Below, in pieces: positions 33,720 through 60,262 of a stretch of DNA of 64,000 bases (its first letter is position 1; each line of letters opens with the position of its first letter). Under the pieces are notes generated by a model that searched no databases, was not told the origin of the DNA, and was given only the letters and a program-made list of their open reading frames with translations. Origin of the DNA: Ruditapes philippinarum. Taxonomy: Eukaryota. The stretch spans positions 310,001-374,000 of the forward strand of contig NW_026856698.1 of assembly GCF_026571515.1 (NCBI RefSeq). The letters run 5' to 3'. The translations under genes and the position numbers were made by a program.

Positions 33720-33880
33720 ATACATGTGTTAATTGAAGCATGAAGCTATTTTTTTTATATATATATCGAAATATGAACATATTTCGATTGAGGGCACAAT
33801 ATGGCATATTTTGATTTGAATACGTGACATATTTGAAATTGGTTTTACAACATTTATGATTGATATTGATAGATCATCGT
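33720..33880 (-). repeat. Module A copy 1 (diverged)
   Basis: Reverse strand reads ATCAATCA...AAATATGTCA...TATTGTGCCCTCAATCGAAATATGTTC...ATGCTTCA. Confidence 0.7.
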
Positions 33881-34336
33881 TTTAGAAATAAAGACGTATA
33901 TATGCCAAGTTTGCTAACATATGCGTGTTTTTTGTATTTTTTAATAAAGAAATGAGACTCTCTTGAAATATACAGGCGCTTTCATAATCGTATTCTATTG
34001 TTAATAATTAATATTATCAACTTTAATAAACCACGATGGTATTTAATACATGCCAACATTTAAACATAATCAAAACATCTTAAATGCGCTTTTAAAATTT
34101 ACAAGCATATAAATTGAAGGTATTTTTGACAAATTACATCGGCAAGTTACATTTTGTTTAATTAGAGAGAACACTATTATTTGAGGAAGATAGTTATATT
34201 ATACCTTAACTGATTTTAATGGACTTGTCAAGCTTCAATATTTGGACTGCCTATTATACGCGAGGGGAAGTCAGAAAATATCCGGACTTTTGACTCGTTC
34301 TCGAAAAAACATTCAACATTTAAAAAAATAAATAAA

Positions 34337-36259
34337 ATATTCTCCACCTACGTCTTCGCACTTTTACGGAATGCCGTTAGGGCCATTGCCTATGAATGTG
34401 TTGATCTGAAACGCGATAGTCGATAGTACGATGGTGAAAACGCGAAATCACGAAAATACGATGGTGAAAACGCGAAAGCACGATGATGAAAACGCGAAAG
34501 TACGATGATGAAAACGCGACAGTACGATACTACGATAATGAAAGCGCGATAAACTATCGTGTTTTCACCATCGTACTGTCGCGTTTTCACCATCGTAGTT
34601 TCGTGATTTCGCGTTTTCATCATCGTACTGTCGTGTTTTCATCATCGTACTATCGCGTTTTCACCATCGTACTATCGCGTTTTCACCATCGTACTATCGC
34701 GTTTTCACCATCGTACTGTCGTGTTTTCATCATCGTACTATCGCGTTTTCACCATCGTACTGTCGTGATTTCATCATCGTACTATCGCGTTTTCATCATC
34801 GTACTATCGCGTTTTCACCATCGTAGTTTCGTGATTTCGTGTTTTCACCATCGTACTATCGACTATCGCGTTTCAGATTAACACATTCATAGGCGATGGC
34901 CCTAACGGCATTCCTGAATGCCGTTAGGGCCATCGCCTATGAATGGTTTAATCTGAAACGCGATACTCGACAGTACGATGATGAAAACGCGAAATCACGA
35001 AACTACGATGGTGAAAACGCGACAGTACGATGGTGAAAACACGATAGATTATCGCGTTTTCATCATCGTAGTATCGTACTGTCGCGATTTCATCATCGTA
35101 CTATCGCGTTTTCATCATCGTGCTTTCGCGTTTTCACCATCGTAGTTTCGTGATTTCGCGTTTTCACCATCGTTCTATCGACTATCGCGTTTTAGATCAA
35201 CACATTCATAGGCGATGGCCCTAACGGCATTCCGTACACTTTTGCCATCTTCGTGGGAGCTTTTGTATTCCCGCTGTGAACCATGACGTAGACCTATGTT
35301 TTAGGTACTGTGTAACAGCAGATATCAAAGCCGCCCTGGTATAATGTTTCTTTCTAGCAAGCAATTTTTTCAGTTCTGGAAACAAATAAAAGTCACAGGG
35401 GGCGAGGTCTGGGCTATAAGGAGGGTGAGACAACAATTGCCATTTGTAAGAGTTGATAACCTCCACTGTAGTTGCGGCGGTATGTGAGGGGGCGTATCGT
35501 GAAGAAGGAGGACATTTTTCTGTGCTAACCTGGGACGCATTTACTTCAGCTTTTCTCTGAGATTTTTCAGAATTACTTCAGAATAGTACTTGGCGGTGAC
35601 AGTTTGACCTTTTGGCGTGAAATGAGTAAGTATCATTCCTCGTGAATCCCAAAAGGCAACAAGCATGACTTTGCCAGCCGAAGGAGACAGCTTAAACTTT
35701 TTAGGAGGTGGGGAACCAGCTCGTTACCACTGCTTTGATTGAGCTTTTGTCTCAGGTTCGGAATAATGAACCCACATCTCATCTCCAGTGATAATGCGGT
35801 TCAAAAACTTATCTCCTTCACGATTAAAACGACTTAAATGTTCTTTTGCATTGGTTACTCTGGTTGCCTTTTGATCTGCGGACAGCTGTCTAGGCACCCA
35901 CCTGGCACTTACCTTGCTCATGCCTAGGTGTTCGTGTAAAATCTTGTGTGCCGATGCCTTACCGATGCTAAACTTGTTGGCTACCTCCTCCAAAGTTACT
36001 CGACGATTTTTGTTGACAAAAGCTTTAACATTTGCTACCATTGTTTGGGTCACCGCCTCAGCTTGCCACCCAGTCCTAGGCCTGTCACAAACACTTGTTC
36101 TGCCTTCACGAAACTGAGAAACCCAGCTGTAGAAGGTTGAACGTGATACACATTTATCAGAAAATCTTTTTTTAAGCCTCTGAAAGATGTGGCAGGGCTT
36201 TTCACCTTCTACAATCAGAAACTTTATTACAGAGCGTGTCCCTCTAACAAAGAGTCCAT
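34337..36259 (-). pseudogene. mariner transposase pseudogene
   Basis: Probable ATG at 36259. In-frame stops (e.g. after SKQW) and frameshifts. The C-terminus PRRWQK|CEDVGGEYF is interrupted by the 34365-35236 insertion. Confidence 0.9.
34365..35236. mobile_element. IS3EU-like non-autonomous element built from a 22-bp minisatellite; inverted dimer of two palindromic units
   Basis: Termini TACGGAATGCCGTTAGGGCCAT...ATGGCCCTAACGGCATTCCGTA. Exact 6-bp TSD CACTTT at 34359-34364 and 35237-35242. Internal ACGATGGTGAAAACGCGATAGT arrays in both orientations. TAY..RTA ends with a 6-bp TSD are the described IS3EU hallmarks. Confidence 0.8.
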
Positions 36260-37619
36260 GATAGACGAAACACCTATCATATATCAGAGGGCAAAATACT
36301 GTGTATACACAACTATCATTGAAAATAAACTGACCACGTTATTGGCGAATGAATGTAGTTTTCACCAATAAATAATGTGTGTATATAGCTGCACGTGGAA
36401 AGAGAAGAGCATGAAAAGTCCGGATATTTTCTGACCGTCCCTCGTAAATTTGGGAATATATAGATATTAAAATTGTTAAAGTTATACAGGCTGGGCTTGT
36501 TTGTTCTAGTGGCAAAGGCTGAAAACGTTCGGGGCCAGTAGTTAACGGGTTAATGAATGTTACTGACTGTTGGTATAAGAGTATCTAGTATGGGAAGGAT
36601 TACGTAAATGTTTGATTTCTACTGAATACAGGTGAGCAGAATATCCATTCATATCTCTGGTTAATAAATTTGATTGGCGAAGACGTGTGTATTAACATGT
36701 TTCTGGTTGAACATGCATGTTCATCTTTTAAGGTTTTCTTATTCTCAGAACAAAATATCCAAGTTGCTCGGATCACAGCAAAAAAGTGCATCATATTTGA
36801 GAAGAAGTTTTTAGAATTAAAATGTGCGCCTGATATGAGACAAGATGTCGCGCTATAAACTAGATAAGAACTGTAAACACTTGTTAGTGCATTCATATTG
36901 TGCACTCTTTGTGCTCTTTTCAACTGATTTTAAATGATAAAATCGCATTTAAATCTTTTTGGAGCCTCTAGTGATTGATCTGTTATTGTGTTGTGAGCAT
37001 CTTGACATTTGCCGCGATGATGTGACAAAAGGAGAATCATTTGTTTGTTCTCAATTTGTAGATTTTGCTTCATATATGAAACAAAGCTTTTAAATAACAT
37101 AAGACTGAATACTGAAATGCTATAATTTATTGATGCAACATAAATATGGTTTATTTATACTCGAATTAGATGATGACGTTTCGTTTTGTTACAATAAATA
37201 AGCTAAAAACTTTATGAAATTTGAAAAAAATATCATTCTGCAAAAATAATTTCGTGAAATGATTACAAATCTCTGATCTGAACACTTTACCAAGAAGACA
37301 GAAAGATAAGAGTATTTGAACTATTTGGTGCGGATGTGAATACTAATGTTGAAGTGTAGTGAAAAGTTTCATTAATTGAAATACAAAAACAACAAAACAA
37401 AATGAAAATGAAGTTTGAAGAACATCTTATGATACATATTGATCAATATATGTTGTCTATTGCGTGCTGTTTTATAAAGCGACTCTTGTTTAAAAATAAG
37501 TGTGTGCCTGCTGCAAGATATAATAATTGTTTCTAAACAACTATTTGTTTTATATTCAAGTGGAAAACAGTCAACAGAATTTTAAGACAGACTATACCTT
37601 TTAATAATCTAGATATTAA

Positions 37620-37835
37620 GCGTGTTCTTTGACAAACAATTAATCAAAAATGAAAATAAACATTGCAATATTAAACTACTTTAAACAATGCCTAAGAATG
37701 ACAATAAAAGAAATTCTCTCCCGTTTTTAACACTCAAACACAGATTGGACAATGTGAGATGTTATCATACATCAAGATAACCAAGAGTCAATTTGTTGAC
37801 CTTTGAGATTATCATACATCAGTTCAGAAAACAAA
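37620..37835 (+). repeat. Module C copy 1
   Basis: Shares GTTCTTTGAC, TACTTTAA.ACAATGCC, TCAAACACAGAT, TGTGAGAT.TTATCA and GTCAATTTGTTGACCT, in the same order, with 46828-47090. Confidence 0.75.
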
Positions 37836-38559
37836 GGCACCACTGACAGAACAATACTAACATAAGGTCACCTGTAATGTTGTATTTTATAATTAGTCTA
37901 ACTTGTTAACATTTAATTCCTTTGGTGTTGTGATAAAATGAATACACATAGACCTTAAAGGAGCAAACAATGAAAATGTTGTTGAAGGCTCAGGTCGACT
38001 GAATCTGTTCATGGAATAACAGCATTTGTTTTATACCATGCAAATCATTTGATGTGCTCTAAAAAGAGCATATATTTTTGCAAATATAGAAAAGAATACG
38101 CGCAACCGAATCTTGCGTATTTTCAATGTTTAAAGGTGCTTTACTCATGGACTTCTTAAAGTAATATAGCGTTACATAATAAAAAATTGAAATTCAAAAT
38201 TAAGATAATTTCATCTGGAATAAGGAATCATACTTTGACCGTGGCAAATAAAAGTGAATATTCATACAAGGAAAACATTGTGCGCATGTTACTAATACTG
38301 TAGATGTTCTTTATCAGCATTATCTTTTTATATTATTTCTTTTCTTATTAAACGATCAATAATTTTATGAACAATAAGTTTTAATATAGCTAAGGAAATA
38401 AAAAAAGAATTATGTTTAATGTTATATTCTTTTCAATGTGTTGTTATTTCTGTTTTTCAATATTACAGTAACACTATTTGTATAAACGAAGGTGCATAAG
38501 AATAAGAATGTTAAAGGGAGACATAAAAGTTAGGGTAACTAATTTATAAATAAACCCAT

Positions 38560-38760
38560 CATCCTCTCGTTTTTCTGTCTAGCAGTTATTCAATTTTAAG
38601 CTAATATTTGACATTGATTGAGATATATCTCGACCAGGAAATGAGGTTGCTGGCAGAACTTTATGGACTGTGTTGTTTTTCATATTGATTTGTGCCATCT
38701 CCCGATCATTTGTCTAGATTTTATCCAATTCAATTGAAACGACTACATCGGAACAATATT
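38560..38760 (+). repeat. Module B copy 1 (diverged)
   Basis: CTAATATTTGACATT.ATTG.GATATATCTCGACCAG...TATGGACTGT...GATCATTTGTCTAGATTT. Confidence 0.8.
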
Positions 38761-40042
38761 AACATAACATAATAGTGATAGGTAATGAAGAATAATGTTT
38801 GACGATGTCTTTTTTCTATCATGTTGCATCAAATAATTGAATGAAATTTCGAGGAAAAGGAATAATAGGTTCATTCAGTTTAAACTAACTTCAGATATGA
38901 GAGAGGCGGCGAAACGTAAAGACATATAAAATTTAGATACTGTATTCAAATGTATGCACCGGGTTTATAGGATTTTGTTCTAATACCTTATTCTGCCATA
39001 ATGGAAACTGTAATTAGAACTCACAAACTATCATTTTAAATTGTTTCAAAACCAAATGATTTTTTTATTTTGCGTACTAGATTATATTGACAAAAATTCA
39101 GTAAATGTTTCACTTTTTACCATGATACGTCCTGTAATATGAAAATATGTTTATTTCTTTGTTGAAATTAAGACCTGTTGAAGCAATGCAGAAGAGATCC
39201 AAGTTAATTTGTTTTGATCTAAGAATACACCAAAAGAACATTTCATACTTAATTTCAAGAAAGCAAAGCTAAAATGTTCCAAACTATTAACATGCTTTGA
39301 ATTAGTACACACAATAGGCATGTTATGATACATGAAGTTCATTTCATGGATAAAATAGTAAATTTAGAAATTATGCTGTCTTTGGATATTATAAGAGCTG
39401 TTTCTTATATTGGTCTTTTCCTCTTATTTTCTTGAAGCATTACATGTACCACACAAGCAACACTTTAATTATTACTCTTTATAGTTCATTAATTTACCCC
39501 AGTAAAATTCATTTAAAGTTCTAATATGTTATAAATGACTAGCATGTTAAGCCTCGCTCAATACAGCATTTATCAGCATGGCCTGATAAAAATGATATAT
39601 CAAAGTACAGAAGCATGTTATTCTCTATTTATCAGCGGGTGGCTATTTAGGGTAATGCAGCTTTAAAATATCAAAGTTATATGAGTGTTACGTTAAATAA
39701 TGCTTAAATCATATTTCGCTTAATAAGTTTAGATCGGTGATAATTACCATTGATTAATTATAATTCTTTTCAAAATTGGTTTCTTTCACAGTAACTATCA
39801 AACTAATATGAGGCACCAGTTTGAACAAAACAAACATGTTAAACAGTAAAAGTCCCTTAATTTCTGATCTTTTGCCTATGCTAACTTTGCATGTTGTTCA
39901 GTACAAATAATGTCATTAGTTGTTGTGTTTCACCATATATAATAAGGAGAATAGTTATATTCATTTTGATTTGGTTCTTCTTTTTCCCCTAAATACTTAT
40001 AGAGTTCAGTCAGAATATACTCTATCTATTTCTTTCAGACGA

Positions 40043-40367
40043 TTGAAGTCAGGAGACTGTACAAATATGCATCATACTCTTGTAAACCGTCTGTCAGTTG
40101 TAATGTTCATCATCCCTAAAACGCCATCAATCAAGGACTATTTGTAATTTAAAATATGTCATATTATCAAATATATGGTTGGCCTTATTGTGCCCTCAAT
40201 CTAAATATGTTCGTTAAGTGCGTATCAGATGCTTCATTTCACTAATCTGTATGTTTTCCAATAAAACATTTCTCTGCAATTATTTGTATTTAGAGTGATA
40301 AGGAGGGTTTTTGTCAGTATCAGTGATCTTTGTTACATCAATTACGTGTAGCGAGACAGTAAATATT
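40043..40367 (+). repeat. Module A copy 2
   Basis: Core 40171-40262 is identical to 58668-58759. Confidence 0.9.
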
Positions 40368-41647
40368 GACAATCGAACCAAAGTCGATGAAATCGTTTAC
40401 CACCAGCACTATTACCGTCTTATCATTATAAGTAGCATCAAAATCACCAGATGATGTTTAATGATCGTTTCTGTAAAATATTCAAACATGTACTCTCATA
40501 ATTCAGATAAAAATATCTATCAAAACTCAATGCATATACGAATTGAAAAAAAATAGTTCTTTCTGTATTTTTAAGTTAACAAGGACAATGATCTTGTACA
40601 TGTAAAGAGGTTGCCTACTTGATATATATTTAATCATATTTAATGATATTTATTACAAAAGTAAGTGATATTATCAATTATAAACTGTACATATGAATGC
40701 CGTTGTAGAACTGTCAATGAGTTTTATCCTATAAAGGATGTGTATTGTTTCAATTTATTTTTACATTGTTATCTAGCAATCATGAACATACTTTGCTGTA
40801 AAATTTGCTTTATTTTTCATCATTATTTTTTTGTTTAAAAGAGTTAAGTATGTATTGAGCATATACCGCCAAATCGAAAATGAATGACGTTTTATTGTAT
40901 TACTATGGTGCTAGAAATAATGACTTATTGCATATCATGTAATGACACCGGAAAAGCTTGAATGACCCTTATTAGCCAAATAAGAAACTCAGGCATGGAA
41001 ATAAGAAATTAACCCAATTAAAAAATGGGTAGGATAATATGAGGTCACTATACATTGTTGCAATACTGAATTTTCATTGGAGGAGCCTTGTCCAATACAA
41101 GTTTTGCACCTGCGTACAAATATTATGTATAATGACGGCTTTATTCACACCACTAACTTCTTGACATTCGTATAATTTTGATACTTGGAGTACAATAAGG
41201 ATGTGATGTTATTTTTAATGGACTCTGAAAATAAAAATGACGGGGTACAATAGTGATTTGATATGGACTTTTGGTCTCAGAAAAATGAAAACGAGGCTAG
41301 ATGGAGATTAAAGTGATTTGATATGGAAGTTCTGGACTGGCAAAATGAAACTGTGGCTTTATTAATAAGATTGGATCCAACATTTATGGCAGATCACATG
41401 GTGCAAGAGCTAGAAGCTTATTAGTTACAGTAAAAAATAAAAAGTGTGAAATAATACAATATATATAACTGTGCAAAAATGAATAGTTTATCTGAAATAG
41501 GTAAAAGAAAATTAGAAATTATTTCTAAAATAGACAATGCATCAAAGAGAGTCATTGTTTTACATCGACAGTATTCAGGATAATCTTTAACCGTAGTCGA
41601 AATGTTTTTTATATCATTATATCATTTTTTTTGTAAAAGAGATAAAT

Positions 41648-41960
41648 GTTTCCGTAAGAGAAATCCTATTAGAATAACAAGTTTAACAATCCCTATCATC
41701 AACACCTCGTTTTGTCGTTAGGAATTTATGTAATTTTAGACTAATATTTGACATTAATTGTGATATATCTCGACCAGAGAATGAGCTTGTTGGCAGTTAT
41801 GTATGGACTGTAGCGTTGCACATATTTATTGTGAGAATTCAAGATCATTTGTTTAGATTGTTTCTATTTAATTACAGACATTGCAGTTTAACATTGACAA
41901 TAACGGGATCAAAGTTAGTTGAATTATTGGCCATTTTAAGAAATAGAGAAGCTGTCATTT
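41648..41960 (+). repeat. Module B copy 2
   Basis: Core 41706-41830 matches 60017-60141 with 2 substitutions. Confidence 0.9.
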
Positions 41961-42089
41961 CCTGTAAATAAAAACAATGCATTGTCTGTTAGAAAGGTAC
42001 TGAGTATGTACAAAAAGTGATTTTAACTACGTTTATGTTAATGGACAATTAAATCAACAATTCATTTACCAAAGAAATTGCTTTACATC

Positions 42090-44588: not shown

Positions 44589-46827
44589 ACTTCGATGTTG
44601 TGTGTTCCTGGTTCTTTAGACTCATTAATTCTAGCGCATTTTTGTTAAAAGTTGGATATCGCTTAAAGAGTCGTGACGGATGTTGCATTTATTCATTTTA
44701 CTTCACAAACAGACACAATCAAATCGAGTCTGCAATTTACATGTAAATTTGTTTTCATTGCTTAAATCTCCTTTTTTTCAGTCGACCAGGGTCTAATTAG
44801 TCTAAATACAATGCATTTAACAGCATTCCTGATAATTTATTAGGCTTTGTAAAGGTTGTAACGAACTTTTAAAGTTTATAAAGGAGAAAACTTCAAAAGG
44901 TATAAAAAAATTCTAAGTGTTTAACTTACAATATTATGGTTTGAATTGGTATATGTATAAACTGTTCACATTTTCGTTAAGTTATTGTTAACGGTTGTGG
45001 GGATTATTAAAGTTGTTACGTTTCAACAGTTGTTTAGAATGAATTGTTTCCTCGTTCGTTATAAAAATCAAAATTTGTGACATTTAGTAAAAGAAGCAAT
45101 TGATTTCGATATTAAAAAGTGCTTTAAAATGTTGATATTAAAATGTCCCTCGACAGCATTGATAACAATATTTTAACTATTACAATGCTTTTGTTCATAT
45201 AAAGCCATATTCCTATTTCTGGTCTTTGTAAGTATCTATATATAGTTAACGGTTTAAAAAGGCGTTATGAGTTTCATTATACAGATTATATTATCAATAC
45301 AATAGAAATAATGAAAATAGTCTCATGCGAATACAAACACTGATCAGACGATACAAACCGCGTTCCTTGTAGTTTTGTTTTTCCTCAAAATTGACCAATA
45401 AACGTTGTAATACGTCATTTCCGAATCATTAGCCTAACTAACAAGATGATGTATGACAGAATATGGAAACATCAATTATCTTTCATACATATGCTTAACT
45501 AAACGAAAGATTATGTCTGCAATCACTGATCTAATTTTGTGTTTGCTAGAATGTCATAGTTCATATTTCCAAAACATCAATCAAATATTCACCATTGCCT
45601 AAATCTCTCGCTTTGTCAAAGCGTTTCAGAAATGAATAAGATTGAACTGTATTGAAGTTTATTAAAGATATATATTTTGTGCAAAAGTTAGGTGTAAGGA
45701 AGATACGTTGATACTTGATAAATGATAGAGCTCAAATAATACAATTAAAAAACTTAACAACAACACTACAACAAAATCAAAAAATCTTCACCCATGATAT
45801 CGATACATTTTGATGAACTTTTTGCACCATAAATATCTATTAGAAACTCGTTATTCTACGAGCAATTTGAAAACTTTCTTAAAAATTGAAAAAAAACTTC
45901 ACATATGTTAACATTCGATTTCCCAAACCTCTATCAAGAAGTTTTTTTAATGCATATTTTTGTGCAAAACAGGAAAAATGACTATAATTGTATAAACAAT
46001 TACTTGTAATTCAATAATTAACTTTAAGTTTTCATAAATGCAAAAAGAGTAAAACCGTTGCACTAGGCATTTTAGTGACCATTAACTCTGATTATTTGCA
46101 ATATATGTATTAAAGCGATGTATGAAAATAAATGCAGCATCTACAATGCCAATAGCAAAAGAAGATTTGACTTATTGTCATTTTTAAACAATTCACCACT
46201 GTATTCTACTTCCTCCGTTTGTAACTTTTCGTGTTCAATGTTCCTTGTGAGCTCTTTTGTTCTATTGGCGTTGTGTGGCTTTGGGTAAAGATGCCTGGGT
46301 AGTCGGGGGCAGCGTGTAATTATGTTGGTTGATGTTTTGCTCTTTTATTTTTTTTCTTAAACTGAGATACATCTATTTTATTCAGCATGTGTGTCAAAAA
46401 AATAATAAGCAAAATATTTAAAAAGATATGAATGTTCCATATATGAAAGTGAATGTTCCATATATGAAAGTGACAAATTATCAGTACACTTGCAATATAC
46501 CTATTGTAGCGAAAGGGCATTTCTAATAGAAAGATTTAAATTGCCGATGTTATAAAAATAAAATAATATAATCCCTATATCAATTTTAATACAATGAAGG
46601 AAATAACTTATTCATAGCATTTGGTGAATATCATTAGGAATTACTTTTGAATTGAAATATTATATCGAGTGTGCCTTTTAACGTGATTTGTTTTGGGGCT
46701 CTGTTTAAATGGTCAGTATTACAAGCTTCATCAATCAAACATCTTATACAAACTTTCAATCAATCCTAAATAAAACAAGTCTGGTACATAATGAAACATT
46801 TTTAAACAACCACTAAATTTATAAAGT

Positions 46828-47090
46828 GAGTTCTTTGACGTGTGATTGATCAAAACTAGAATAAGTATCTTAAGATATCGCACAATTAAATTACTTTAAG
46901 ACAATGCCGCAGAATATGATTTGGAGAAAGTGGCTGACGTGTTTACAATGTCTATAATACTGAAGTATATTCAAACACAGATATGACGTTGTGAGATATT
47001 ATCAAACATATTTTTGACAACCTGGTGTCAATTTGTTGACCTGCGCTAAGGAAAGATATCCGATTATTAATCATTGTTCTCAAAACAAAG
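46828..47090 (+). repeat. Module C copy 2
   Basis: Collinear motif blocks shared with 37620-37835. Confidence 0.75.
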
Positions 47091-50000
47091 AAAAATAAAT
47101 AATTTGGTTGTGACTAAAGAGCAAGACCTATTTGACAAAACAAAGCGTTATGAATCCCATGCAACAAACATTATCAAATAAAACAAATGATTAAATTGAA
47201 AACGATTGAAAAGCCAATTTTGTAGGAAACTTTTTTCCTTAAGATACTAATTTCTGCGTTTAGTTTTGTTTTTCTTGAAACTAACCATTATCTGTTGTAA
47301 TGCTTAATTTCTGGGTAAAAAAAATAATTAATCCGAATTTATGGAAATATCAATTTTGATCAATATACACCGTATGCCTAACTGAATAAAACATTATTTC
47401 TACGTCTTAAATCATAACCTGTATTTGCACAAATCAATAAAAATATAATAAAAATGCGGACATGCCTGAATTTTTATCATCAAAGTATTAATAAAAATGA
47501 AAGTGCATATATTTTGTTATGTTTTTGGAGAATTAAATGATGAAAATTTAATAAATATATATTTTTTCAATGCATATATGACCCAAAAAGACACAGTGCA
47601 AAATTACGTCGTTGCGTTTATTTACATACTTATTTGATATCTTTGATTCCTTTAGTATAAATTTTTTTTATGCTATTACAGGTAGACATATAAATTTGCC
47701 AGGCCAGATTTTATTTTCAACAATTGCGTGTGATACGAGAGAAGATATCGCGGTTTTAGGAGAACAAAAAGTGCTTAAAATTGTTTCTGCATTTATAGTT
47801 TCAAGTTTTAGGTCTAATAATGTTTCAAAATAATTGTGTTCAATGATGCAGGTAATAAAGCATTTTATAATTAATAAGATAAGCTAAATATATTATACAT
47901 TTGTTTATGCTTAATGAGGGTCCATCCGCCCTTTCAGGCAAAAAAATGCATCTTTCGCTGTCGAGTACGGACCCCAGACATGTCACCAGTCATGCCCTTA
48001 AAGAGTTAAATTTAAGCACAAAGTGGTGCTAATTTACCTCCATGCAATTTCCACGGAGTATTAGCCAAAGATATGAATTTTGAGCCAAAAGTAGGTCACT
48101 GTACGGCGGTCAATGAGAACCTAAATGTACGTAAACCTGAGACAATATGAAAGGGTAGCCCTGAAAAGGGCTGTTTGCGCCAGAAAAGGAATGCAGTTCA
48201 AGCCGCTTCACCGTGCTAGGGGCTCACGCACCCTAGCACACCATCCTCGTCGACTCAGAGCCTACTTTGTAGGGCCACTCCCCTCGGCTTTGTTCAGGAC
48301 ACCGGCAGTTAACTTAATGCAAGCTAAGTCGTGCCGCCTTAAATATAACCCCGAGCTGTAGAAAATATGCGAACCTGCCGTCTTATACGTAGCATTGGTT
48401 CTTCAATCATCTGCCAATGCCCTGTGTCTTCTCAACCACGTACACGTACCGAGGAAAAGAGAGAAGTTACATTTGTTTTGCATCTTATGTTCTATTTAAT
48501 TGAAAAACTTTATTTTGGAATTATTTTGTTAAAATTCATAGTATCAAGTTACATTGCCACAAGCATTTTTAAAGAAATCAAATGAAATTAAAAAACAAAA
48601 TTTTATAAATGATTCAGTTATTAGTGTTACGCAATCTTACATTCTTTCAGTTTTTGTAAAATTTTAGCTTTAAAAAGTTTTCATAGACGCTCAAGTTCTT
48701 GACAAAACAAAGCGTTATGAATTTCATAATTTCATAGACGCTCAAGTTCTTAAACCATATTAAGCAATACTGAATCTTTAAAAATCAATTACTCAGCAGT
48801 ATTCTATCTATTCAAGTTGGTTCTTGACTCTGTTGTTTTGACTAAAGTATATCAAAGTTCATTTTTTTAAATAATTTAAACAGCATACATATATGCATAG
48901 TTTTTGTTTGCTTTCTACCATCGGATACAGATAAATATATTTTGACCAATTTTAACTGAACATTTTATGATAAATAGAATAGCGGACGATCAAAGCAAAT
49001 GTGTACATAATGAACAATAAATGATGTTTTATGTTTTTTGAATATAACGTAGTTTCAGTTTGCAAGAATGATGCATAATTTAAATTCATACATATCTTTA
49101 TTACATATTTTGATCGTTCAGCACGACATTATTGTTGTGTATACATATTATGTGGTACTTTTAGTTTCTTCTATTTGGCCATTTTCAACTTGTGTGGTTC
49201 CAGCATTCCTACTTGAATACTGTATAATCACCCTTAGGATATGTTGCCTGCTTTTTAAATTTGTCTTTTGACGACTTATCTGTGATATGCAGGCTTCATA
49301 ACCGCAGATCTCCTTTCAAAATTCCATTTTATTTAGTTCCGCCCATTGTTTTCTCGTATAGGGCAAAAGCATTCTTTTACTTGGGGACCATACGCCGCTT
49401 TTAATGGAATGGCACTACTGTGTCGCATTGAAGGTCCATGATAACCGTCGTATGAACACATCTGCGGATGTTTCTAAATTCAAAATTTCACCATTTTTTT
49501 GTTAAATGTTGAATTCTGCTTAAGCCGGTGCTAGGGGGCGTGGACGGTAACTTGCACTTTCCAGTACCGTCCATGAACAGGCCCAATTAAACCGAGCCTG
49601 CAACATTTTCAATTTTGTTATGTTGGGCTTTCTTTAGGGATTCTGTTTCATTCTAATTAATTGACGTCCAATAGAAGCATCCTTTGATACAAGACATAGA
49701 ACCAGTGGTTTGTTTGAAATCAGTCCTTGTTTCTTGTTATCCAAATGTCCTTATTCACACTTTTTAAACAATTAAAGTAAAAGGTCCGTACTGTTCTATT
49801 GTACTTTTTAAATTTGAATGTTACATTTTTAAAATATTTTTGTTATATCGTTGAATAAAGTTACTTAATTTAAATGTTACATTCTTTGTGTATATTAGCT
49901 ACGAGCAAATTTTAGACAAGATTTTGTATCAGGCACTTTGGTGTGTTATAAAATTTCAACGTATGTCATGTTTTTGAGCTGAGCTGCTGTGGTGTTTCCA

Positions 50001-50334: not shown

Positions 50335-50575
50335 CCTTGTCAGTCAAAAAACAAATATTTGTACAGGAATAGCGCGAGAAAAACATACAGATTTGTGATT
50401 TGAAGCATCTGATATGGTGGGAAGGAACATATTTAGATTGAGGGCACAATAAGGCCAACTGTTTATTTGATAATATGACATATTTAGAATTACAAATTGT
50501 AAATGATTGATAGATTTATATGGCAGATGAACTTTATCGTTCTCAAAGGGATAACTAGTTCTTATATTGACTTCA
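50335..50575 (-). repeat. Module A copy 3 (inverted)
   Basis: Reverse strand reads AAATATGTCATATTATCAAATA..GTTGGCCTTATTGTGCCCTCAATCTAAATATGTTC..TATCAGATGCTTCA..AATCTGTATGTTTT. Confidence 0.85.
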
Positions 50576-52262
50576 ACATTACTCCCTGTCAAGATGTTTG
50601 GTGATAACCGGAAAATATAAACCTAATGAAATAAGTTTTTATCCCGTATTTATTTTTTGTGATATTTTAAAGGATTCAGTTTAATTTTTATGAGAAGTTA
50701 AATAAAAAGATTCCCATTTTGTGTACAAATATACTGATCATGAATATTTTTTCATTGCAAATGCCATTTTAATTAAGGTTTTTAAACAAAAGAAAAATAT
50801 CATTTTTCAATAAAACACTCATTTCGTTTGAAAAAAAAAATCAGTGAAAACAGCATTTAAAACAAGAAATATTTTAAAAAAAAGATACTCGGCCGAAGTA
50901 AAACTGGTTATCTTGCATATGTTAGTTCTTAGTTTTCCTTGCAACGTCATATAGAAATGTTAGCATAACTTGCATAACAATACTAGTAACATAATAATTT
51001 CTTGTAGGGTTATTAATGTTGAAAAATTGAATACTTTAAGATGTATGTGTTTTAAATGAACTTATCGTGTTTCGGTCAGTGAACCTCTACTCAGTCGGTA
51101 GGCAATTATTTTTTATAAATAATTGATTAATATTTATAAATGTATGAAAAAAAAAGCATAATATCATTTGAACACATCATTAATCATATAATATATTAGA
51201 CACAGTAAGTTTTTATGTCAAACAATCTGTTCTTTAGAAAATGTACTGAGATCTGAATGCAGTGTAAAATGTTTTGTACAAACAGAACTAAAATATCTGA
51301 GCAATTTAACTAGAAAATTAAAGAATTATATTCAAAAACATCAGTTGGTAAGGACAACATATCTAATTGTATTAATGGTTTGACTAAGTAGCTTCATGAG
51401 GGGACAGTGTGAAAACTGAGCATTTTTGCCTGCACTAAAATGTGTTCCATTGAGAATAAACAATTCTATTTCCCAGTGCGTAAAAATACTTTATCTAGCA
51501 GTTCCATAGTATAAAGTTTTGAGACATTGAAATAAAGCCAAACAGTATTGATAAGTGACGTCACATGTCAAATAATTATATATACATGTATAATTTTATA
51601 AAGACACGATTTGCTCGCTTTTAGGTTATTTATGTGCTGTGCACGCTTATTTTGTAGTAATCATGTCACTCTAGGGGTTTTCATAGATATACGTGTGGAT
51701 TTAGACGGTAGCGTTGACCAATCAAAATTAAGTATATCTGGCGAGATATCTAATTTTGATAAGAGTGTTTAAAAATATATGAAACAAACATACTTAAAAA
51801 TTTCAAAGCAGCATAGTCAGTACTATTTAACAATTCATTATACTTAATTACATACGGATGTTTATAATAAAATTCTGGGATATTTTTTTCCGTGCGTCAG
51901 TGAAACGTTTACAGGACATAATTGCGAGAAATTCATTTCCAAGTGTCCGGCACTCTTCACTTGTACGCTCGTTGTATGGAGTGTTGTTGTATCTTAGAAT
52001 TTCACTGGAAGTCGGTGATAAGATGTCCGAAATTTCAGAAGCGGTATGTACAAGTTTCTCGGTAATATTGTTATTTAGTCTTCTGTCTTATGTTCTTGTT
52101 TATACACATTATATAGTTTTCCTTTGTTTGAGGCGTGAAATGTTACATTCCAATCAGTTATGAATTGATTTACTATCACTTGCTTTACCAATAAGTAAAT
52201 GTTTTTCATGGTGATATCCTCTTGATTCACAAATTATTAGGTGACACCAATTTTATGTTATC

Positions 52263-52369
52263 GAGAAACTCCAAAAACAGTCCATTATGTGAGAGAATGA
52301 ACAGATTGAGGCGCATAGCGGCGAGATTTGTTTATTCTCTCACATAATGGGCAGTTTGAGGAGTTTCTC
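52263..52369. repeat. ~107-bp imperfect palindrome upstream of the Crypton ORF (probable terminal structure)
   Basis: GAGAAACTC..CCATTATGTGAGAGAAT..[GAGGCGCATAGCGGCGAG]..ATTCTCTCACATAATGG..GAGTTTCTC. Confidence 0.8.
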
Positions 52370-52657
52370 TTACTTAAAACATGTTTTCTAATGTCTAAAT
52401 AATGGACAGTTGTATCAATACATGATTTCCATGCAAAAGTTGGGTAAAAAATCATGCGTCCATTGTTAACCTTTACTTTTTGGGGGAAAATGAAAAAGGT
52501 AAGAAAAAAATGTTTATCATGCTTTCATGAAATACACTGTATATATAGTTGTGACAATATTCATAAGTAACACAAAGTTGACATCATTAAGTTGTTCTGG
52601 ATTTAAAAAAGAAAAAATGAAAGAAAGAAAAACGATTAGAAGTTATAAGCAGCAATA

Positions 52658-55103
52658 ATGTCCTATTCAGATGATAATATTTTATAACACAGTCAAAAGA
52701 AAACGGATGTTTGAGCCCTATAGAATCGGATTTAATTTTAAGTGAGGTATTAGACATGGTAGAATCGGCTGACAATAAGCAAGAACAGAGCCCAGCCGTC
52801 GTTTGATTTGAAAAGCGACCTATTTTTTTTAGACATTTCGGACGAGGAACTTTTGAAAGCAACTCAGCTCATCGAACAAAATGAGCCATCAAGGTTTTCA
52901 GTGCCACTGAAACAAAGGGATTTAGACAACCTTGTCAAAATTGGATTGTCTAGTAAGACAGAAAAGAAATCAAAATGCGCAGTTAACATGCTTGACTTAT
53001 GGCAGAAGAACAGAAATAAAAACACAGACTCTTTTGTGCCAAACAACAATCTCATAAATATGAGTAGCGAAGTGCTGAACGAGACACTGGGGTACTTCAT
53101 AGCAGAAGTGAGGACAATATCTGGAAAAGAATATAAGCCCAACACATTAGAGATTATATTGCGACAACAAGATCTTCGACAGCAAGGTAGACTTATCAAC
53201 TTTCTAGATGATGCCGCTTTTGATGGATAAAGGCGTATTCTTGATGCAAAAATGAAGCAGCTATCCAAACAAGAGCTTGGTATGCAACAAAGAGGCGCTG
53301 CTATTATAAGTGAAGATCAGGAGAATGAACTGTGGAACAAACGAATCTGGGAACAGAAACGCAACAAATGCTTCAAGATACGTTAATTTACGCGCTGTGC
53401 TTGTATTTTGCTTTAAGAGCAGGCCAGGAACATCGTGCACTTAGAGTTGGTGAAAATGGACAAATCACAGTCAAACGGGACTTACAAAATCGCCGATATT
53501 TAGAATATCGTGAGGGTGTATCCAAAACAAACAGAGGGGGGATTTAACATCGTAAGATATAGCCCAAAATCACACGAGCATACGAAAACATAGCCAAACC
53601 CGAGAGATGCCCTGTGAATATTCAAATGTATACGAAAAATATATATTTCTCTCCGGTAAGTTATCTTATTTTTTGTATATGTCTTTCAAACGCTTTTTAT
53701 TCAGCATGTATAAATAATTGCATTCTGACTTAAAGCCAATTATGCCTCAGTAAATAGGAACTCGAGAACGGGACCGCAGATTGCGGCGCATATTTTCGAT
53801 CGTGTAACGGTTTTTAAATATGTTTCTACTACATCTAAATATCTTTAAGTATTATCCGAGTATATGGCCTCAAAAATATATTATAAATTGAACACAATCT
53901 GTTACTTTTAGAACTGGTCATATTTTATTTCATTATTAAAAAGGAGTGACATCCGCCATTTGCCGCAATCTGTATAATTATAGTTTAAACTCTAAATTTA
54001 CTATTAAACACATGTCTGTCATTTCTAAAGAATTAAAAGAATATATTGATTTCTGAGGCATACTGTGCCTTTTACTCACTGGATGAGATGAAATAACAAG
54101 AGTTTTATCTATCTTAATTTTCGCGATGAAATAATGTGAATGTGGACATGTAAAATATGTATATAAATTATCTTCTTGTGCGTAGCGGGTGGGGGATTTG
54201 AATAGGGACCTTATAATTAATTGTAGTCTTTATTTTGCCAATTCACATATATGCAAATTTCTCACTTTGCTTTTGCAGTGGACTTAGTGTCACTTTGTAA
54301 TTTATAAAGTTCTAAAATGAAAAAAAAAATCCAAAAAAATACTTCGTAAGAAATACAAAAATGAAAAAAGAAAAGAAAAAAAAAGAATTATAATATTTAT
54401 AAATAAGTTACCAGCATTTTGTGATAAAACTCAAAAACGTACCCTCCTAAGGAACAGCATTTTTTTAAAATACATAATTACCTTTCTCATGACCATTTTA
54501 TCAAGTTACATGAATTGTAATTAATTAATGATGCTACTTCTTTTAAAGACTGTCTGTTAGTAGATAATTTTGCAGAAATTACACTGTATTTTGACTGTAT
54601 GACTAGGGTAATTTAGTCGAAACGAGTAGAAATGTCATTCCCTCTAGTAATATATTCATAATGTATGTTTTGTTTGCTTACAGTCCAAGAAATTGTAAAA
54701 CAGATGCCTTATACCTGCGACCTCTTAAAGCGCCAACGGCAATATGTTGATACTGCGATTCACCCGTTGGCGTTCACGTGCTACAACAGACAGTTTGTAA
54801 CCTGTGCAAACGAGTTTCCTTCCATGGACATTATACCAACCATTCTTTGAGAGCAACAGCAGCAACACGACTTTATAAAGCTGATATTGGCGAACTGATT
54901 ATTACTGAAAAAAAGGTCATCATTCAAATGCTGTTCGCGGTTATAAACGTACAAGTGAGGATCAGTTGATGCAAGTCAGCGGTATCTTGCATGGACAATC
55001 GGACCAATCAAAAAAATCTAAGACGGAAAATTTCAGTCCAGATAGTAATTTTCAAGAACTCAATTTAACATCTGGAAGTATGTCGCTTCATCTTAAGTTT
55101 AAG
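52658..55103 (+). pseudogene. Crypton (DUF3504-type) tyrosine recombinase pseudogene with one intron (53656-54683)
   Basis: Reads MSYSDDNIFITQS..., YFIAEVRT..G.EYKPNTL, FALRAGQEH (catalytic R), SKTNRGG, ERCPV, LYLRP, YTNHSLRATAATRLY (HxxR), GHHSNAVRGYKRTS (H, Y). CG|GTAAGT donor and ttacag|T acceptor join in phase 2. Several stops and frameshifts. Confidence 0.88.
53734..54070. mobile_element. Kolobok-like MITE inside the Crypton intron
   Basis: TTAA|AGCCAATTATGCCTCAG ... CTGAGGCATACTGTGCCT|TTTA: imperfect TIR, AG..CT ends and TTAA-like flanks. Confidence 0.6.
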
Positions 55104-55729
55104 GGCAAACAAAGTTTCAGTTTGTGTATTATATTTTCAGAAAATGATTATTTTCCAGTATATATTATAAATAAGTCAAATTATTGTATCTTGATAATAA
55201 AAAGAACATATTATTGTCGTTGAGTTATGTATTGTTCGATTATTTCTTCCACTTGAAATGATATATACACATGTTCTATAACTGTCCATTTTCCCTCTCA
55301 AATAATTGATAGAAAAGTATCCAATATTAATATATTGGAAACCTATTTGATAAATATTGGATAGCTTCGTCATCTGCCAGTACAATAGGCACATTTATGT
55401 ACAGAAGCAACAAAAGATGACGTCAAAAACATGTTTTAATCTAAATTAAGCCATCTGTAAGATCTGTAAGACTGATCGCTCTGAATCATTTGTTTGTAAA
55501 AAATATTTAATATCGTGCTAATATCAATTTGCAATGGGTTAAACGCCCCAGTTTCCTATAAAACATATACGTGAGGGTACTTTTCCTACTATTTGTAATT
55601 TTTCTAAATGAAAATCTAAATGAACCTTTTCTCTGTCATCGTTATTTTCTATACTCCATATTTCGCTAGAAAATGTATGGGTATATTTTAAAAATACGAT
55701 TTTATAACAAGGGCATTACCTTTTTGCCT

Positions 55730-56400
55730 GTGTTATGACATGGTCACAAGCTTTGTTTAATTTGCAAGTCTGACTTAAAACAACACCAAAATACTTCTAT
55801 TTTTCTGTTATCTCAATTAGACGATTATGTATGTAGAATGTCAAGTTACGAGTACCGCATGTTTTTTTCGAACCGAAAACAATAACTTTGGTTTTGTCTG
55901 TATTTACTTGGACTTTCCACTATTTACAGTATGGGTAGAAATTATTTAAACATTTCTGAAAATATTGAGGGTTTCGCGCAAAAATAATGGCATCATCTGC
56001 GAAGAAAAGAGCTATGATCGTTAGAGTTTCTATGTTATCACCCGATGTGTAGTCAAATTTAATTCCAGAGTTGCTTTTTGACATCAAATAAGCTAAAAAG
56101 GTCATTTATAAACAGGGCAAATTAAAGTGGGGACACTTTTTTTTCTCTTGCTAGACCCCAAAAATGCACGACATTATGGCAGAAACATTGCTATTTAACT
56201 GGATACAAGATTCACTCTTTTATGCAAATTGTGAATACTTTTAAGGAATTTTCAGTGTCGACTAATTTTTGGAAAAGTTGCGCCCGTGGTAAATTATCAA
56301 ATAGGCCTAAATTAGGAGAAATCAATGAATGCGATATGTAACTTTTGTGGGTTTTTTTCTCTCTCAAATATTCTATGAGAAAAATCATTGTTACCACATG
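55730..56400 (-). mobile_element. Decayed LINE RT fragment (L2/CR1-type)
   Basis: LFFADDAIIFA...CLNNFYPYCK*WKVQVNTDKTKVIVF. Confidence 0.75.
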
Positions 56401-57529
56401 ACCAAGAGTGGACATATTATTTTATAAAAGGAAAGCAGTTTTAATTCCATGAATCAGGCCATTTGTTTCGACAAACCTTGTCAATCTATCAATAGCATAA
56501 AGTAATCCAGTAGCCATTTAAATGTTTACATCGCCTCTGTCAGCAATCTGTCAGTCGTAATGTTTATTATCCCAAAAACGCCAGCAATCAATGACGATTT
56601 CTTATTTTAAAAACGAAGTAATATTATCATTTCATTTCATTTATTGGCAAATAGGCATTGCAAATACCTTTGACCTTTTACACAAAAAATATATGGCCAA
56701 GACATACAGTTTTCAGGAATATTTCATTAATAACTACGTATTTAGTTTAAACATATCTTATTTCTCAGAATATATATACGTGATACAATTTACCATATAC
56801 AGAGAGCAATTAAAAATATTTTTTAAACAAAACTGGATTAGAATGAAAGACAACATGTCTTATGCAATTCTACTCCTAAGTGAGTAATTGACATATAAAA
56901 GGTGCTTAAATGATTACATATTTTATAATCCGAGACGAATATAATATAAAAAACCCAAAAATCACGAGTTTATATTAGAAAAAATGAAAACACAGAATTT
57001 GAAATGTATATTTAGAATCAATATATATTTAGAATGAATATATTATTGGATCGAATAAACATTTATGTAAATATAGACATACCAAGTAGAATAGTTTGAA
57101 AAGAACACAGAAAGTTGAAAAGGTAGTGACGAAGGAGAAAGATAATTAATGAGTTATAAAGTAAAGGAATATAATGATTAAGTGTTAGGCTGTTAAATAA
57201 AAAATTGTGAACGTGTGAAAACATTATGTCATTAGTTTGGTCAGAAAGGTCTGGGTTGCCTAAAAGTAGAACATTTAAATCAACGTCAACATTTCAAATT
57301 TCGAAGTCACTTTTCTCGAGCTGTGTCAAATTGTGTAGATTCGAAGAAAAAATGAAAGTTATTTTCTATTTGGCCGCAAAGACATAAAATAGATAAATAC
57401 AGAATAAAGACGATGCAGTTATGTTTTTCAAAAACAAATGGTAGTTTAGAGAACTACACTTTGTTCGAAGTCTTGTATGAAGAATTTGAAGTTGTTTTTT
57501 TTTCACCAGAAAAGTAATAGTTAGGCGTG

Positions 57530-58607
57530 TGCCGTATGGTTTTCTTAAAATTCTGCTTGGATGATGTGAGAGTTGGAAGGTTACGGACATCGGGTGGAAG
57601 ATTATTTCATTTCCTTATTGCAGTCGGAAAAAAGAGTAAAATAAAGTGTAGTTCTTGCATATAATTCCGGAATATTGTCAATATTTCTTAGGTTGTACCT
57701 ATCATTAGTTGTTGTTGGGAGAATTGAGAAAAGATAATCTGGAGCTAGTCCGTTTTTAATTTTAAAAAGAAAGATCATTCTATGAAATATCGTCTTTTTT
57801 CGAGAGATTCCCAGTTATTTTCATTCAAAAGATTTTCGAGTGAAACAAGTCTTGTACATCCGGAAGCAATACGAGCACATTCGTTTTGGATTTTGATAAG
57901 TTCGTCTTATTCAAAATTTGTAGCATTTCCCCATATAACATCAGCATATTCAAGTAATGGACGAATTAAAGAAGTGTAGATTGTCTCAAGTGATTTTCTA
58001 TCTAGGCGAAATTTTTGTTTTCTCATAAATTTACACTATTCCAGAGAGAAAGTGAAGAGGACCAAGAATTGAGCCTTTGGGAAAACCAGCTGAAAGATAA
58101 CCAATAGACGATTTAGAGTTAGAAAGGACATTACATTGATGTCTATATTTTAAATATTCGAGAAACCAAGTATATACCTTTCAGCATGTTTCAATTTAGT
58201 AAGCAAACCCTTTTGCCAAACCTCGAAAGTTTTTCTTACGTCAAAGAAAAAAACTCGTACTTCTAGACCGTTATCAAGGGTTTTGCAAAGAGTATCATAA
58301 ATATACACTAATTGGTTGACTGTTGAATTGCCTGGTATAAATCCTGATTGAACTGAAGTAAGAAAGTTGTTCTCCTGCAAATGGTTAAAGAGATGTTTGA
58401 ATATAAGTCTTCCAAATACTTTCTCCATGGTGTTAAGAAGTGAAATAGGACGATAGTTACTAGGTAAGGATGGATCACTTTTTTGAAAATTACAGTTACA
58501 TTAGCTTCTTTCAAAGAACTTTAGAGAGAGTAGTTATATAAGTTATATAAGGGAACAGAAAGTTCTTGAGAAGCTTCTTTAAGATTTGTATTACTGATTC
58601 CATCAGC
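57530..58607 (-). mobile_element. Decayed CR1-like LINE ORF2 fragment with internal deletions
   Basis: KEANVT, SNYRPISLLNTMEKVF, QSGFIPGNSTVNQL, GSILGP, IRPLLEYADVIW, IQNECARIASG, WESLEKRR. Confidence 0.85.
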
Positions 58608-58657
58608 TACTTATTTAATGTTTGAATAATAAATAATCACCAAATACTAGTTTTACG

Positions 58658-58853
58658 ATTATCAAATATATATGGTTGGCCTTATTGTGCCCTCAATCTA
58701 AATATGTTCGTTAAGTGCGTATCAGATGCTTCATTTCACTAATCTGTATGTTTTCCAATCTGCAGTTATTTGTATTTAGAGTAATAAGGAGTGATTTTGT
58801 CAGTAACAGTGATATTTATTACATCAATTACATGTAACAGGACCGTAAATATT
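58658..58853 (+). repeat. Module A copy 4
   Basis: 92-bp core identical to copy 2. 5'-truncated next to a CR1 remnant. Confidence 0.9.
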
Positions 58854-58874
58854 TACATTTTACTAAACATTACA

Positions 58875-58943
58875 TAATAATTTACAATAAAGTTAGTTAG
58901 TGACGTTATTGTAATAATTTACAATAAAGTTAGTTAGTGACGT
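58875..58943. repeat. Tandem duplication of AATAATTTACAATAAAGTTAGTTAGTGACGT
   Basis: Two adjacent copies. Confidence 0.85.
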
Positions 58944-59957
58944 GTTCCGGCGATTGAATCGAAATCGCTATTTAAATATTGGAGATACATTTTGTATTTG
59001 TCTTACTACCTATCAAAGCGATAATGATCTATTTAGATGGTAATGTTTCAATTCATATGTATCCATCGCCAATTGTTTTAAGTATATAATTTCGGAATAG
59101 TCAGGCTCTCAGATTAAATGCTGCCTGTGTTAGGTGGAACTCAGTCTTTTTATATTCACGGACTGCCGTGATAAATATATTATCTAGATCACGCCTCTTA
59201 TAACGGCAGGTGATTAGAATGAAAGACACAACATATAATTTTATGAATTATTCTACAAAAAATTGTTAAAATGCCTTCCTCCAGTTGTTGGTTTATACGT
59301 CGTTTGTTTTTGTAAAATATCAAAATATGTATATTGTTTTTCCTAAAAAGAGATCCTCAAAGTACATTCACATGTTAAATAGATTTTCTTTAGATGCTAA
59401 CATATTACATTACGTCACTTTTGTTTTTCATTTGTTGTCATTATTCTGCGAAACTCCTCTTTTTCTTTTGGCGCCTTTTTGTTAGGAATATTAACGAATG
59501 AAGTAAACTTTCCCGTGCGTTCTTTTAGAATATAAGGGACCCAAGTACGGAAAAAAAGTGAACAAGCAAAAGAAATGTCGATTTGTGTCGTATTCGGGGG
59601 CAGATTTTATAAGTCGTATAACAGCTATTCATAAATTATATATTAAACAGAAACGGGCTTTTCAGATGGTGATATTATTTCTTTTGGCACATATCACATC
59701 ATATTCACAAGCTTAATAGTCCACATTGGTTGATACTTTAATAAATTAATAAACATTTAAGTGAGATATGTTTCGCTATTTCTGACAAGAGGTTTACTTC
59801 AGGCACAATAGAAAACAAATATCGGTACCGTATAAATTGTATATCTAAGACGGACTTTGTCCGGGATATCTATAAATTGTCTTGAAATAATAAAAGTTTC
59901 TTTATTCATTTTTTATCATTATTTCAGGCACTGTAATAGAGATTCTTGTAAATTGAG

Positions 59958-60262
59958 TGTTCCCGTAAGAGAAATTCTATTAGGATAACTAATTGAACGA
60001 TCCCGACCATCAACAGCTCGTTTTGTCGTTAGGAATTTATCTAATTTTAGACTAATATTTGACATTAATTGTGATATATCTCGACCAGAGAATGAGCTTC
60101 TTGGCAGTTATGTATGGACTGTAGCGTTGCACATATTTATTTGAGAAGATTTATGATCATTTGTCTAGATTTGCCCTGTTCAATTACACGAACTGCAATC
60201 GAACAATACCACTCAATTGAATCAACGTTAGATGAATAATAGCTATTTTAGGCAATAGAGAA
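59958..60262 (+). repeat. Module B copy 3
   Basis: Core 60017-60141 matches copy 2 with 2 substitutions. Confidence 0.9.

What the first reader, a model, noticed from the sequence alone, without database searches (positions are those of the whole stretch)
33720..60262. Dispersed family of non-coding modules (A x4, B x3, C x2) in a 27-kb gene-free region
Seen: order A(-)33.8k, C 37.7k, B 38.6k, A(+)40.2k, B 41.7k, C 46.9k, A(-)50.4k, A(+)58.7k, B 60.0k. I see no TIRs, TSDs, Pol III boxes or tails on these modules, and no conserved ORF. Diverged copies keep short motif blocks with variable spacers: A keeps ATCAATCA, AAATATGTCA, ATTGTGCCCTCAATC and ATGCTTCA; B keeps TTTGACATT and GATATATCTCGACCAG; C keeps GTCAATTTGTTGAC. 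Known: TGATTGAT and TGACA are Pbx and Meis (TALE) sites and ATTGT is a Sox core. Inference: a locally amplified array of enhancers or small-RNA units downstream of prdm8, or regulatory relics of a tandem gene cluster.
Basis: partly seen in the sequence, partly recalled or inferred. Interest (0 to 1): 0.7.

Follow-up and report, generated by a model that had tools for sequence, protein, structure and literature searches.

The report
Duplicated enhancer-like blocks beside clam prdm8
Three unrelated short non-coding blocks have been copied several times, only next to the gene-regulator gene prdm8 in a clam genome, and stay recognisable where the DNA between them does not, so they are likely duplicated gene switches, some likely kept alike by sequence exchange between copies; no switch activity has been tested.

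Summary
The modules are real. A, B and C are three unrelated 200-350-bp families confined to a host-gene-free stretch of at least 120 kb downstream of a single-copy prdm8 in a venerid clam: A x5, B x4 plus two decayed copies and two fragments, C x3. No conserved ORF, RNA fold, TIR or TSD was found. Identity peaks in cores and drops to random in spacers. B1 and B3 vary less than their flanks between haplotypes; C1 does not. One inverted pair 47 kb apart (A2/A5) differs at 1 of 312 bases beside a 72%-identical shoulder, which points to gene conversion. Conversion can mimic constraint. Best reading (0.55): locally duplicated, partly selected enhancer-like elements, probably of prdm8. Cross-species conservation, chromatin and expression could not be tested; the two 'RNA' runs behave as Hi-C DNA. 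This scan noted similar duplicated blocks elsewhere in this genome (e1-9925195, e1-9860686), and enhancer duplication is known in fly, mouse and human. New member of a known kind; modest interest.

The parts
26414..29457 (+). prdm8-like gene, four coding exons (26414-26551, 27206-27334, 27851-27958, 28378-29457); single copy in the assembly; candidate target of the modules
   Evidence: last exon 78% identical to a Mercenaria protein; PR domain PF21549 in relatives; C2H2 fingers
33688..33868 (-). Module A1, most diverged A copy; keeps short exact blocks with spacer indels
37620..37819 (+). Module C1, diverged C copy; as polymorphic as its flank in one other animal
38541..38763 (+). Module B1, about 75% identical to the other B copies; low variation between animals
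39981..40406 (+). Module A2 (core 40120-40303). 40095-40406 differs at 1 of 312 bases from inverted A5 47 kb away; the shoulder 39981-40094 differs at 32 of 114 columns
41647..41954 (+). Module B2
46826..47093 (+). Module C2 (77% to inverted C3 beyond the window)
50335..50536 (-). Module A3
56547..56629 (+). A4a, 5' half of the split A4 copy (about 80% to A2)
58658..58857 (+). A4b, 3' half of A4; core identical to A2 over about 95 bp; A4 is absent from contig C1766, a probable other haplotype
59958..60266 (+). Module B3; 5 differences in 309 bp from the C1766 copy

Best explanation
A, B and C are three unrelated short non-coding elements copied only within the gene desert 3' of prdm8; they are likely enhancer-like protein-binding modules, probably acting on prdm8, that likely arose by old local tandem and inverted duplications, were likely kept by selection on their cores while spacers decayed, and are likely homogenised in part by gene conversion. 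Shown: local confinement, low copy number, core-and-shoulder identity profile, near-identity of A2/A5, decayed and haplotype-absent copies. Inferred: selection (supported for B, open for A, not seen for C1), conversion as the cause of the identical tract and of the B mosaic, enhancer function, and prdm8 as the target (nearest host gene; the far side of the desert lies beyond the contig end). The set would turn over by birth and death: new copies by duplication, loss by insertion (A4), deletion or decay (B5, B6, perhaps C1).
For: Confinement: DNA searches of the 1.41-Gb assembly gave 5, 5 and 3 candidates for A, B and C, all on this contig except one B3 copy on a 6.8-kb probable haplotig. A neighbouring 198-bp transposon gave 1,674. 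Exact-motif scans gave 5 of 6, 5 of 6 and 2 of 2 hits in the cluster or its haplotig; the two outliers lack flanking homology. Profile: A2-B2 vs A4b-B3 reach 98% in both cores, 60-90% in shoulders and 28-60% across the 1.2-kb spacer, like a shuffled control. Copy ends differ pair by pair, with no TIR or TSD seen. Blocks are non-random. Lower variation: B3 5/309 vs flanks 79/1315 against C1766 (p=0.0009). On one X15 contig, at worst 6/340 differences over B1 vs 11/147 beyond it (p=0.005). Over B1 all four animals gave single contigs with 6-9 differences in about 400 bp (X5, X8, X14; X15 as above), while the next flank carries a haplotype with 21-35 differences in 320-390 bp. B1 is only about 75% like its paralogues, so recent conversion hardly explains this. 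Conversion: A2/A5 1/312 vs 32/114 in the shoulder; an X5 contig follows the tract to 40406 and continues into A5's flank; the B2/B3/B4 odd-one-out pattern is mosaic (p=0.047 and 0.016). No ORF or RNA fold. [quoted passage not shown]
Against: No functional or cross-species data: the one metagenome motif scan gave 11 of 11 chance hits. C1 is as variable as its flank in X5 (9/165 vs 7/117, p=1; 16 of 19 differences listed). B3 vs its right flank alone is not significant (p=0.10), nor is the A2/A5 tract vs nearby flanks in X14 (1/224 vs 16/838, p=0.14). The B1 boundary was set after seeing the data, the table showed 40 of 235 differences, and a recombination breakpoint could give the same step. 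Conversion alone can keep cores alike. 3 of 11 control repeat pairs also looked block-wise. No shared motif grammar across families and no motif enrichment that is both pre-chosen and robust. A4 is missing from C1766. Locally confined repeats are common here: 54 of 135 families in an 802-kb sample.
Confidence: 0.55

Rival explanations
1. Function-free debris of old local duplications: cores stay alike only because gene conversion keeps working where similarity is already high, while flanks have drifted past the point of pairing.
For: The A2/A5 tract and the B mosaic point to conversion. The identical tract runs about 100 bp past the family core. C1 is polymorphic, A4 is dispensable, B5 and B6 are decayed, and local duplications are frequent.
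Against: A1 keeps exact 8-16-bp blocks separated by indels, too diverged for recent conversion. B1, about 75% like the others, still varies little between animals. The same cores survive in every pair rather than different pieces in different pairs.
Confidence: 0.2
2. The modules are promoters, short first exons or micro-exons of an unannotated family of non-coding or small-peptide genes, not enhancers of prdm8.
For: Sequence reading: A2-A5 have AG|20 nt|GTATGT with an ATG at its start, and all three C copies have CAG|10 nt|GTGAGA inside invariant blocks. Earlier notes from this genome reach such readings for other duplicated blocks (e1-9860686, e1-8603611; unchecked).
Against: The putative exon lengths are not multiples of three. 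A1 shifts the donor-like word by two bases relative to its ATG. The -1 base is T. B has no convincing conserved donor. No downstream exons are shared between units (BLAST; tBLASTx, output cut), and no host Pfam domain reaches its cut-off in the 167 ORFs scanned. Such words are expected by chance among about 170 invariant bases (rough estimate, not computed).
Confidence: 0.17
3. An array of small structured RNAs (miRNA, snoRNA or snRNA-like).
For: Low copy number, a local cluster and conserved short blocks fit such arrays. A1 has one 90-nt window with z -3.85.
Against: No Rfam match on a module at gathering score or E<=1. Best 90-nt folds are -10 to -20 kcal/mol, z mostly above -2; structure conservation index 0.11-0.61. 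The C consensus fold has a covariation term of -0.33. Blocks are spread over 150-250 bp, not in hairpin arms.
Confidence: 0.05
4. Remnants of dispersed transposable elements.
For: Both orientations occur and the region is full of transposon relics.
Against: 3-5 genome-wide candidates vs 1,674 for a control element; diverged A1 and B5 queries found 4 and 1, all local; no TIR, TSD or shared ends; module bins are at background read depth (about 0.1-6x) while transposon bins reach 300-510x.
Confidence: 0.03

Closest known systems
Shadow-enhancer sets born by local duplication in fly and mouse (PMC13345019, passages seen; e.g. CG6325, Gata4 with two duplication groups)
   Same: Several short homologous non-coding blocks near one developmental regulator; more than one family per locus; homology often limited to the element body.
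   Different: Those are defined by measured enhancer activity; none is measured here. 'Gene conversion' has 0 occurrences in that paper's main text, whereas it is the clearest signal here.
Regulatory element families made by segmental duplication (Weaver and Lowe, bioRxiv 10.64898/2025.12.03.692127, abstract and outline seen)
   Same: Families of non-coding elements made by duplication rather than transposition.
   Different: Human, young duplications with open-chromatin, STARR-seq and CRISPRi support; here the surrounding duplicated DNA is no longer alignable and all copies sit in one desert.
IgH 3' regulatory region with inverted hs3a/hs3b enhancer copies (PMC4757795, abstract seen)
   Same: Enhancer-like copies downstream of a gene, with inverted duplicates tens of kb apart; B and C copies point one way in the near arm and the other way in the far arm.
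   Different: No continuous palindrome here: only 200-400-bp islands match, the order is not a mirror image, and A copies are mixed in orientation. No sequence relation. Whether conversion maintains the IgH arms was not found in PMC3068965 (0 hits for 'conversion').
Conserved non-coding elements of genomic regulatory blocks (search listing only; otherwise recalled)
   Same: Gene desert beside a developmental transcription regulator; core-and-shoulder conservation.
   Different: CNEs are defined across species; here conservation is seen only between paralogues and haplotypes.

Membership tests
Duplicated (shadow) enhancers | Homologous non-coding blocks clustered at one locus near a candidate target gene | tested here: met
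Duplicated (shadow) enhancers | Non-coding, no conserved RNA structure | tested here: met
   splicing not testable
Duplicated (shadow) enhancers | Sequence constraint above neighbouring DNA | tested here: inconclusive
   met for B1 and B3 (p=0.005, 0.0009), not met for C1 (p=1), open for A2 (p=0.14):
Duplicated (shadow) enhancers | Enrichment of transcription-factor sites in conserved blocks | tested here: inconclusive
   9 recalled motifs; TGAC p=0.013 uncorrected, Pbx 8-mer p=0.003 but chosen post hoc
Duplicated (shadow) enhancers | Open chromatin, reporter activity, contact with the target promoter | not testable with these tools
   no such data; the Hi-C-like reads were laid at only about 1.4x
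Conserved non-coding elements (CNEs) | Conservation in orthologous DNA of other species | not testable with these tools
   no related genomes held; the metagenome motif scan gave only chance hits
Transposable elements (MITE/SINE/Helitron relics) | Many dispersed copies | tested here: not met
   against control
Transposable elements (MITE/SINE/Helitron relics) | Shared sharp ends, TIR, TSD or tail | tested here: not met
   ends of 7 copies inspected; pairwise limits differ
microRNA / structured small RNA genes | Stable conserved hairpin or Rfam family match | tested here: not met
microRNA / structured small RNA genes | Small-RNA reads | not testable with these tools
   no usable RNA run
Relics of a tandem prdm8 gene cluster | Extra prdm8 copies or pseudo-exons among the modules | tested here: not met
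Interlocus gene conversion tracts | Sharp tract of near identity inside an older, diverged paralogous pair; mosaic relationships | tested here: met
   1/312 vs 32/114; B mosaic p=0.047 and 0.016; seen in another animal's contigs

The most novel reading that the evidence does not exclude
A two-armed, inverted enhancer array for prdm8, loosely like the IgH 3' regulatory region, in which functional enhancer copies are kept identical by ongoing gene conversion across 47 kb while whole copies come and go between haplotypes, giving clams heritable variation in enhancer number and hence in prdm8 dosage.
Probability: 0.15. Interest if true: 0.65.

Novelty: new member of a known kind. Interest (0 to 1): 0.33.

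Why it matters
If these are enhancers, paralogue comparison alone has mapped candidate control elements for a mollusc prdm8, a gene for which my searches found almost nothing in print (2 papers with prdm8 and mollusc; expression peaks in D-larvae of Mulinia, PMC10451705 passage). The locus would also be a natural case of enhancer birth, conversion and loss segregating in one species. If they are conversion-maintained debris, it is a warning that block-wise conservation between paralogues can arise without function. The general phenomenon is known, so the gain is local.

Tried and rejected
Expression: no RNA holder listed. The two raw-read runs labelled RNA-Seq behave as Hi-C DNA libraries: unstranded, 73-74% of laid reads run on into unrelated sequence, loose ends pile up at GATC, unique DNA at about genome coverage, prdm8 exon not above background. 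They say nothing on expression. One of four animals (X8) had no contig over C1 at 90% likeness; a hole in contigs proves nothing. Cross-species: metagenome scan with the A motif, 11 of 11 hits without flanking homology; viral-contig scan with the B motif, 4 hits, none matched by the B profile; look-ups for relatives in earlier findings were empty. Rfam: no module hit; the 6 weak hits lie elsewhere. A U7-like Sm word in B1 and B3 (recalled motif) is not kept in B2 or B4 and lacks a 3' hairpin. Open frames through A and B are broken by stops or indels between copies. tBLASTx self-comparison was noisy and its output was cut. Of the listed ORFs I scanned 65 of 67 (the other two) and 101 of 117 plus one long ORF; ORFs under 62-72 aa and low-complexity ones were left out. 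One Fisher test used a guessed shoulder count and is not used; the counted value is 32/114. Literature searches listed no paper on this locus; only listings were read for most, and no supplements were opened.
Full report
Context. The window lies on contig C5185 (462 kb) of a 1.41-Gb assembly. The zinc-finger gene at 26.4-29.5 kb is prdm8-like: its last exon is 78% identical to a Mercenaria protein, and relatives carry the PR domain. It has four coding exons and one locus in the genome. From the stop codon to the contig end, about 122 kb, Pfam scans of 167 ORFs and of the longer window ORFs reached a curated cut-off only in what look like transposon relics. Small exons could be missed.

Observation. 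With the flanking DNA the array extends to 141.6 kb: A has five copies, B four clear copies, two decayed copies and two fragments, C three. Nothing was found in the 310 kb upstream of the window or in 340 kb from two other contigs. A, B and C do not match each other and share no excess of short words, so they are three families. All B and C copies are on + up to 60 kb and on - beyond 87 kb; A is mixed.

Not transposons. Genome searches gave 5, 5 and 3 candidates, and the diverged A1 and B5 gave 4 and 1, against 1,674 for a 198-bp control element from the same region. Exact motifs occur 6, 6 and 2 times in the genome; one A and one B hit lie elsewhere and have no flanking homology. Ends are ragged, with no TIR or TSD at the 7 copies inspected. 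In raw reads, module bins are near background depth while transposon bins are hundreds-fold.

Not coding, not structured RNA. Frames are broken between copies. No Rfam family matches a module. Folding is weak and not conserved. Splice-like words exist in invariant blocks of A and C, but lengths and phases do not agree; without RNA data this rival stays open.

Pattern of conservation. The unit A2-B2 and the unit A4b-B3 have the same order and similar spacing. Both cores reach 98% identity, shoulders fall to 60-90%, and the spacer is at shuffled level. This fits an old duplication in which only the modules survive. Invariant columns cluster more than shuffled ones for A, B and C (p 5e-5, 9e-4, 8e-3), but also in 3 of 11 control pairs, and not in the B1/B2 pair alone.

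Constraint within the species is mixed. Against contig C1766, a probable other haplotype, B3 has 5 differences in 309 bp and its flanks 79 in 1,315 (p=0.0009; right flank alone p=0.10). In contigs of four other runs from four studies (40 of 235 differences listed), B1 lies in single contigs with few differences, while the next flank carries a haplotype about 7-9% diverged. One contig spans both: at worst 6/340 vs 11/147 (p=0.005, boundary chosen after the fact). C1 shows no such dip (9/165 vs 7/117). C1766 lacks 55.6-59.3 kb and with it A4.

Gene conversion. A2 and the inverted A5, 47 kb apart, differ at 1 of 312 bases, while the adjoining shoulder differs at 32 of 114 columns and the DNA beyond does not align. 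An old paralogous pair with a recently copied tract explains this best. It is unlikely to be an assembly error: an X5 contig follows the tract to 40406 and continues in A5's flank, and a 224-bp X14 contig with one difference has about twice the depth of the B1 contig (123 vs 61; a hint only). Along B2/B3/B4 the odd copy changes from B2 to B4 to a mix (p=0.047 for adjacency, 0.016 for longest run). Conversion weakens the inference from paralogue similarity to function. It does not readily explain A1's exact blocks between indels, or the low variation of B1.

Mechanism. Most likely (0.55): three cis-regulatory modules in the 3' desert of prdm8 were multiplied by local tandem and inverted duplication; selection keeps the cores, conversion homogenises some, and others die by insertion, deletion or decay. 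Enhancer function and the target are inferred. The factor names (Pbx, Meis, Sox, nuclear receptor) are recalled labels; of 9 motifs only TGAC, one Pbx 8-mer and one TGACCT half-site had p<0.05 uncorrected, all picked after seeing the blocks. Rivals: conversion-maintained debris 0.20, promoter or exon fronts of unknown transcripts 0.17, small RNAs 0.05, transposons 0.03.

Comparison with what is known. [quoted passage not shown] Segmental duplication makes regulatory families in human (Weaver and Lowe, abstract). The IgH 3' region has inverted enhancer copies (PMC4757795, abstract), but this locus has no continuous palindrome. It works like a duplicated enhancer set at best; membership is unproven because activity and cross-species conservation were not testable. 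Searches listed no paper on this locus or on conversion among bivalve enhancers. The scan has noted similar duplicated blocks on other pieces of this genome (e1-9925195, e1-9860686; unchecked), and 54 of 135 repeat families in my 802-kb sample were locally confined, so such arrays may be common in this clam.

Verdict. Real, local, non-transposon; likely duplicated regulatory elements with gene conversion; new member of a known kind; interest 0.33.

Noticed in passing
runs X23 and X24 laid on window 27500-47400: Two public runs labelled RNA-Seq behave as Hi-C DNA libraries (GATC junctions, unstranded, genome-level depth). Other sessions on this genome that read them as RNA may draw wrong conclusions on expression.
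   Followed up: partly
L015:2403-2678 and L015:8269-8549 (106.4 and 112.3 kb in extended coordinates): A fourth local family D: two 280-bp copies at 70% identity, plus one on a 2.7-kb contig; 3 candidates genome-wide. Divergence is not block-wise (p=0.16).
   Followed up: partly
window 34300-36450: High-copy element with long inverted ends around 22-bp tandem arrays (34365-35236), next to a broken Tc1/mariner-like transposase; related arrays at -35 kb and 130.6 kb.
   Followed up: no
window 52260-55442: Broken ORFs with QRICH1 and DUF3504 domains (Crypton-like tyrosine-recombinase element, label recalled); absent from contig C1766.
   Followed up: no
window 41200-41360: Short imperfect repeat with raised contig depth and many loose ends, probably a low-copy dispersed minisatellite-like family.
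   Followed up: no
window 33955 and 38719: Four reads of one run join these places with 31 other letters between; the short side is only 21 bases. Possible structural variant or ligation product.
   Followed up: no
proteins P0010/P0011 and P0022/P0047: Dreissena and Potamilus each list two prdm8-like proteins, so prdm8 has duplicated in other bivalves, unlike here.
   Followed up: no
L012:2961-5108 (77.0-79.1 kb extended): A 716-aa open frame with a C-terminal Spin/Ssty match, probably a transposon-derived gene.
   Followed up: no
extended 137.9-140.1 kb and 104.8-105.0 kb: Nested inverted repeats and a 190-bp near-perfect palindrome in the far arm of the desert.
   Followed up: no
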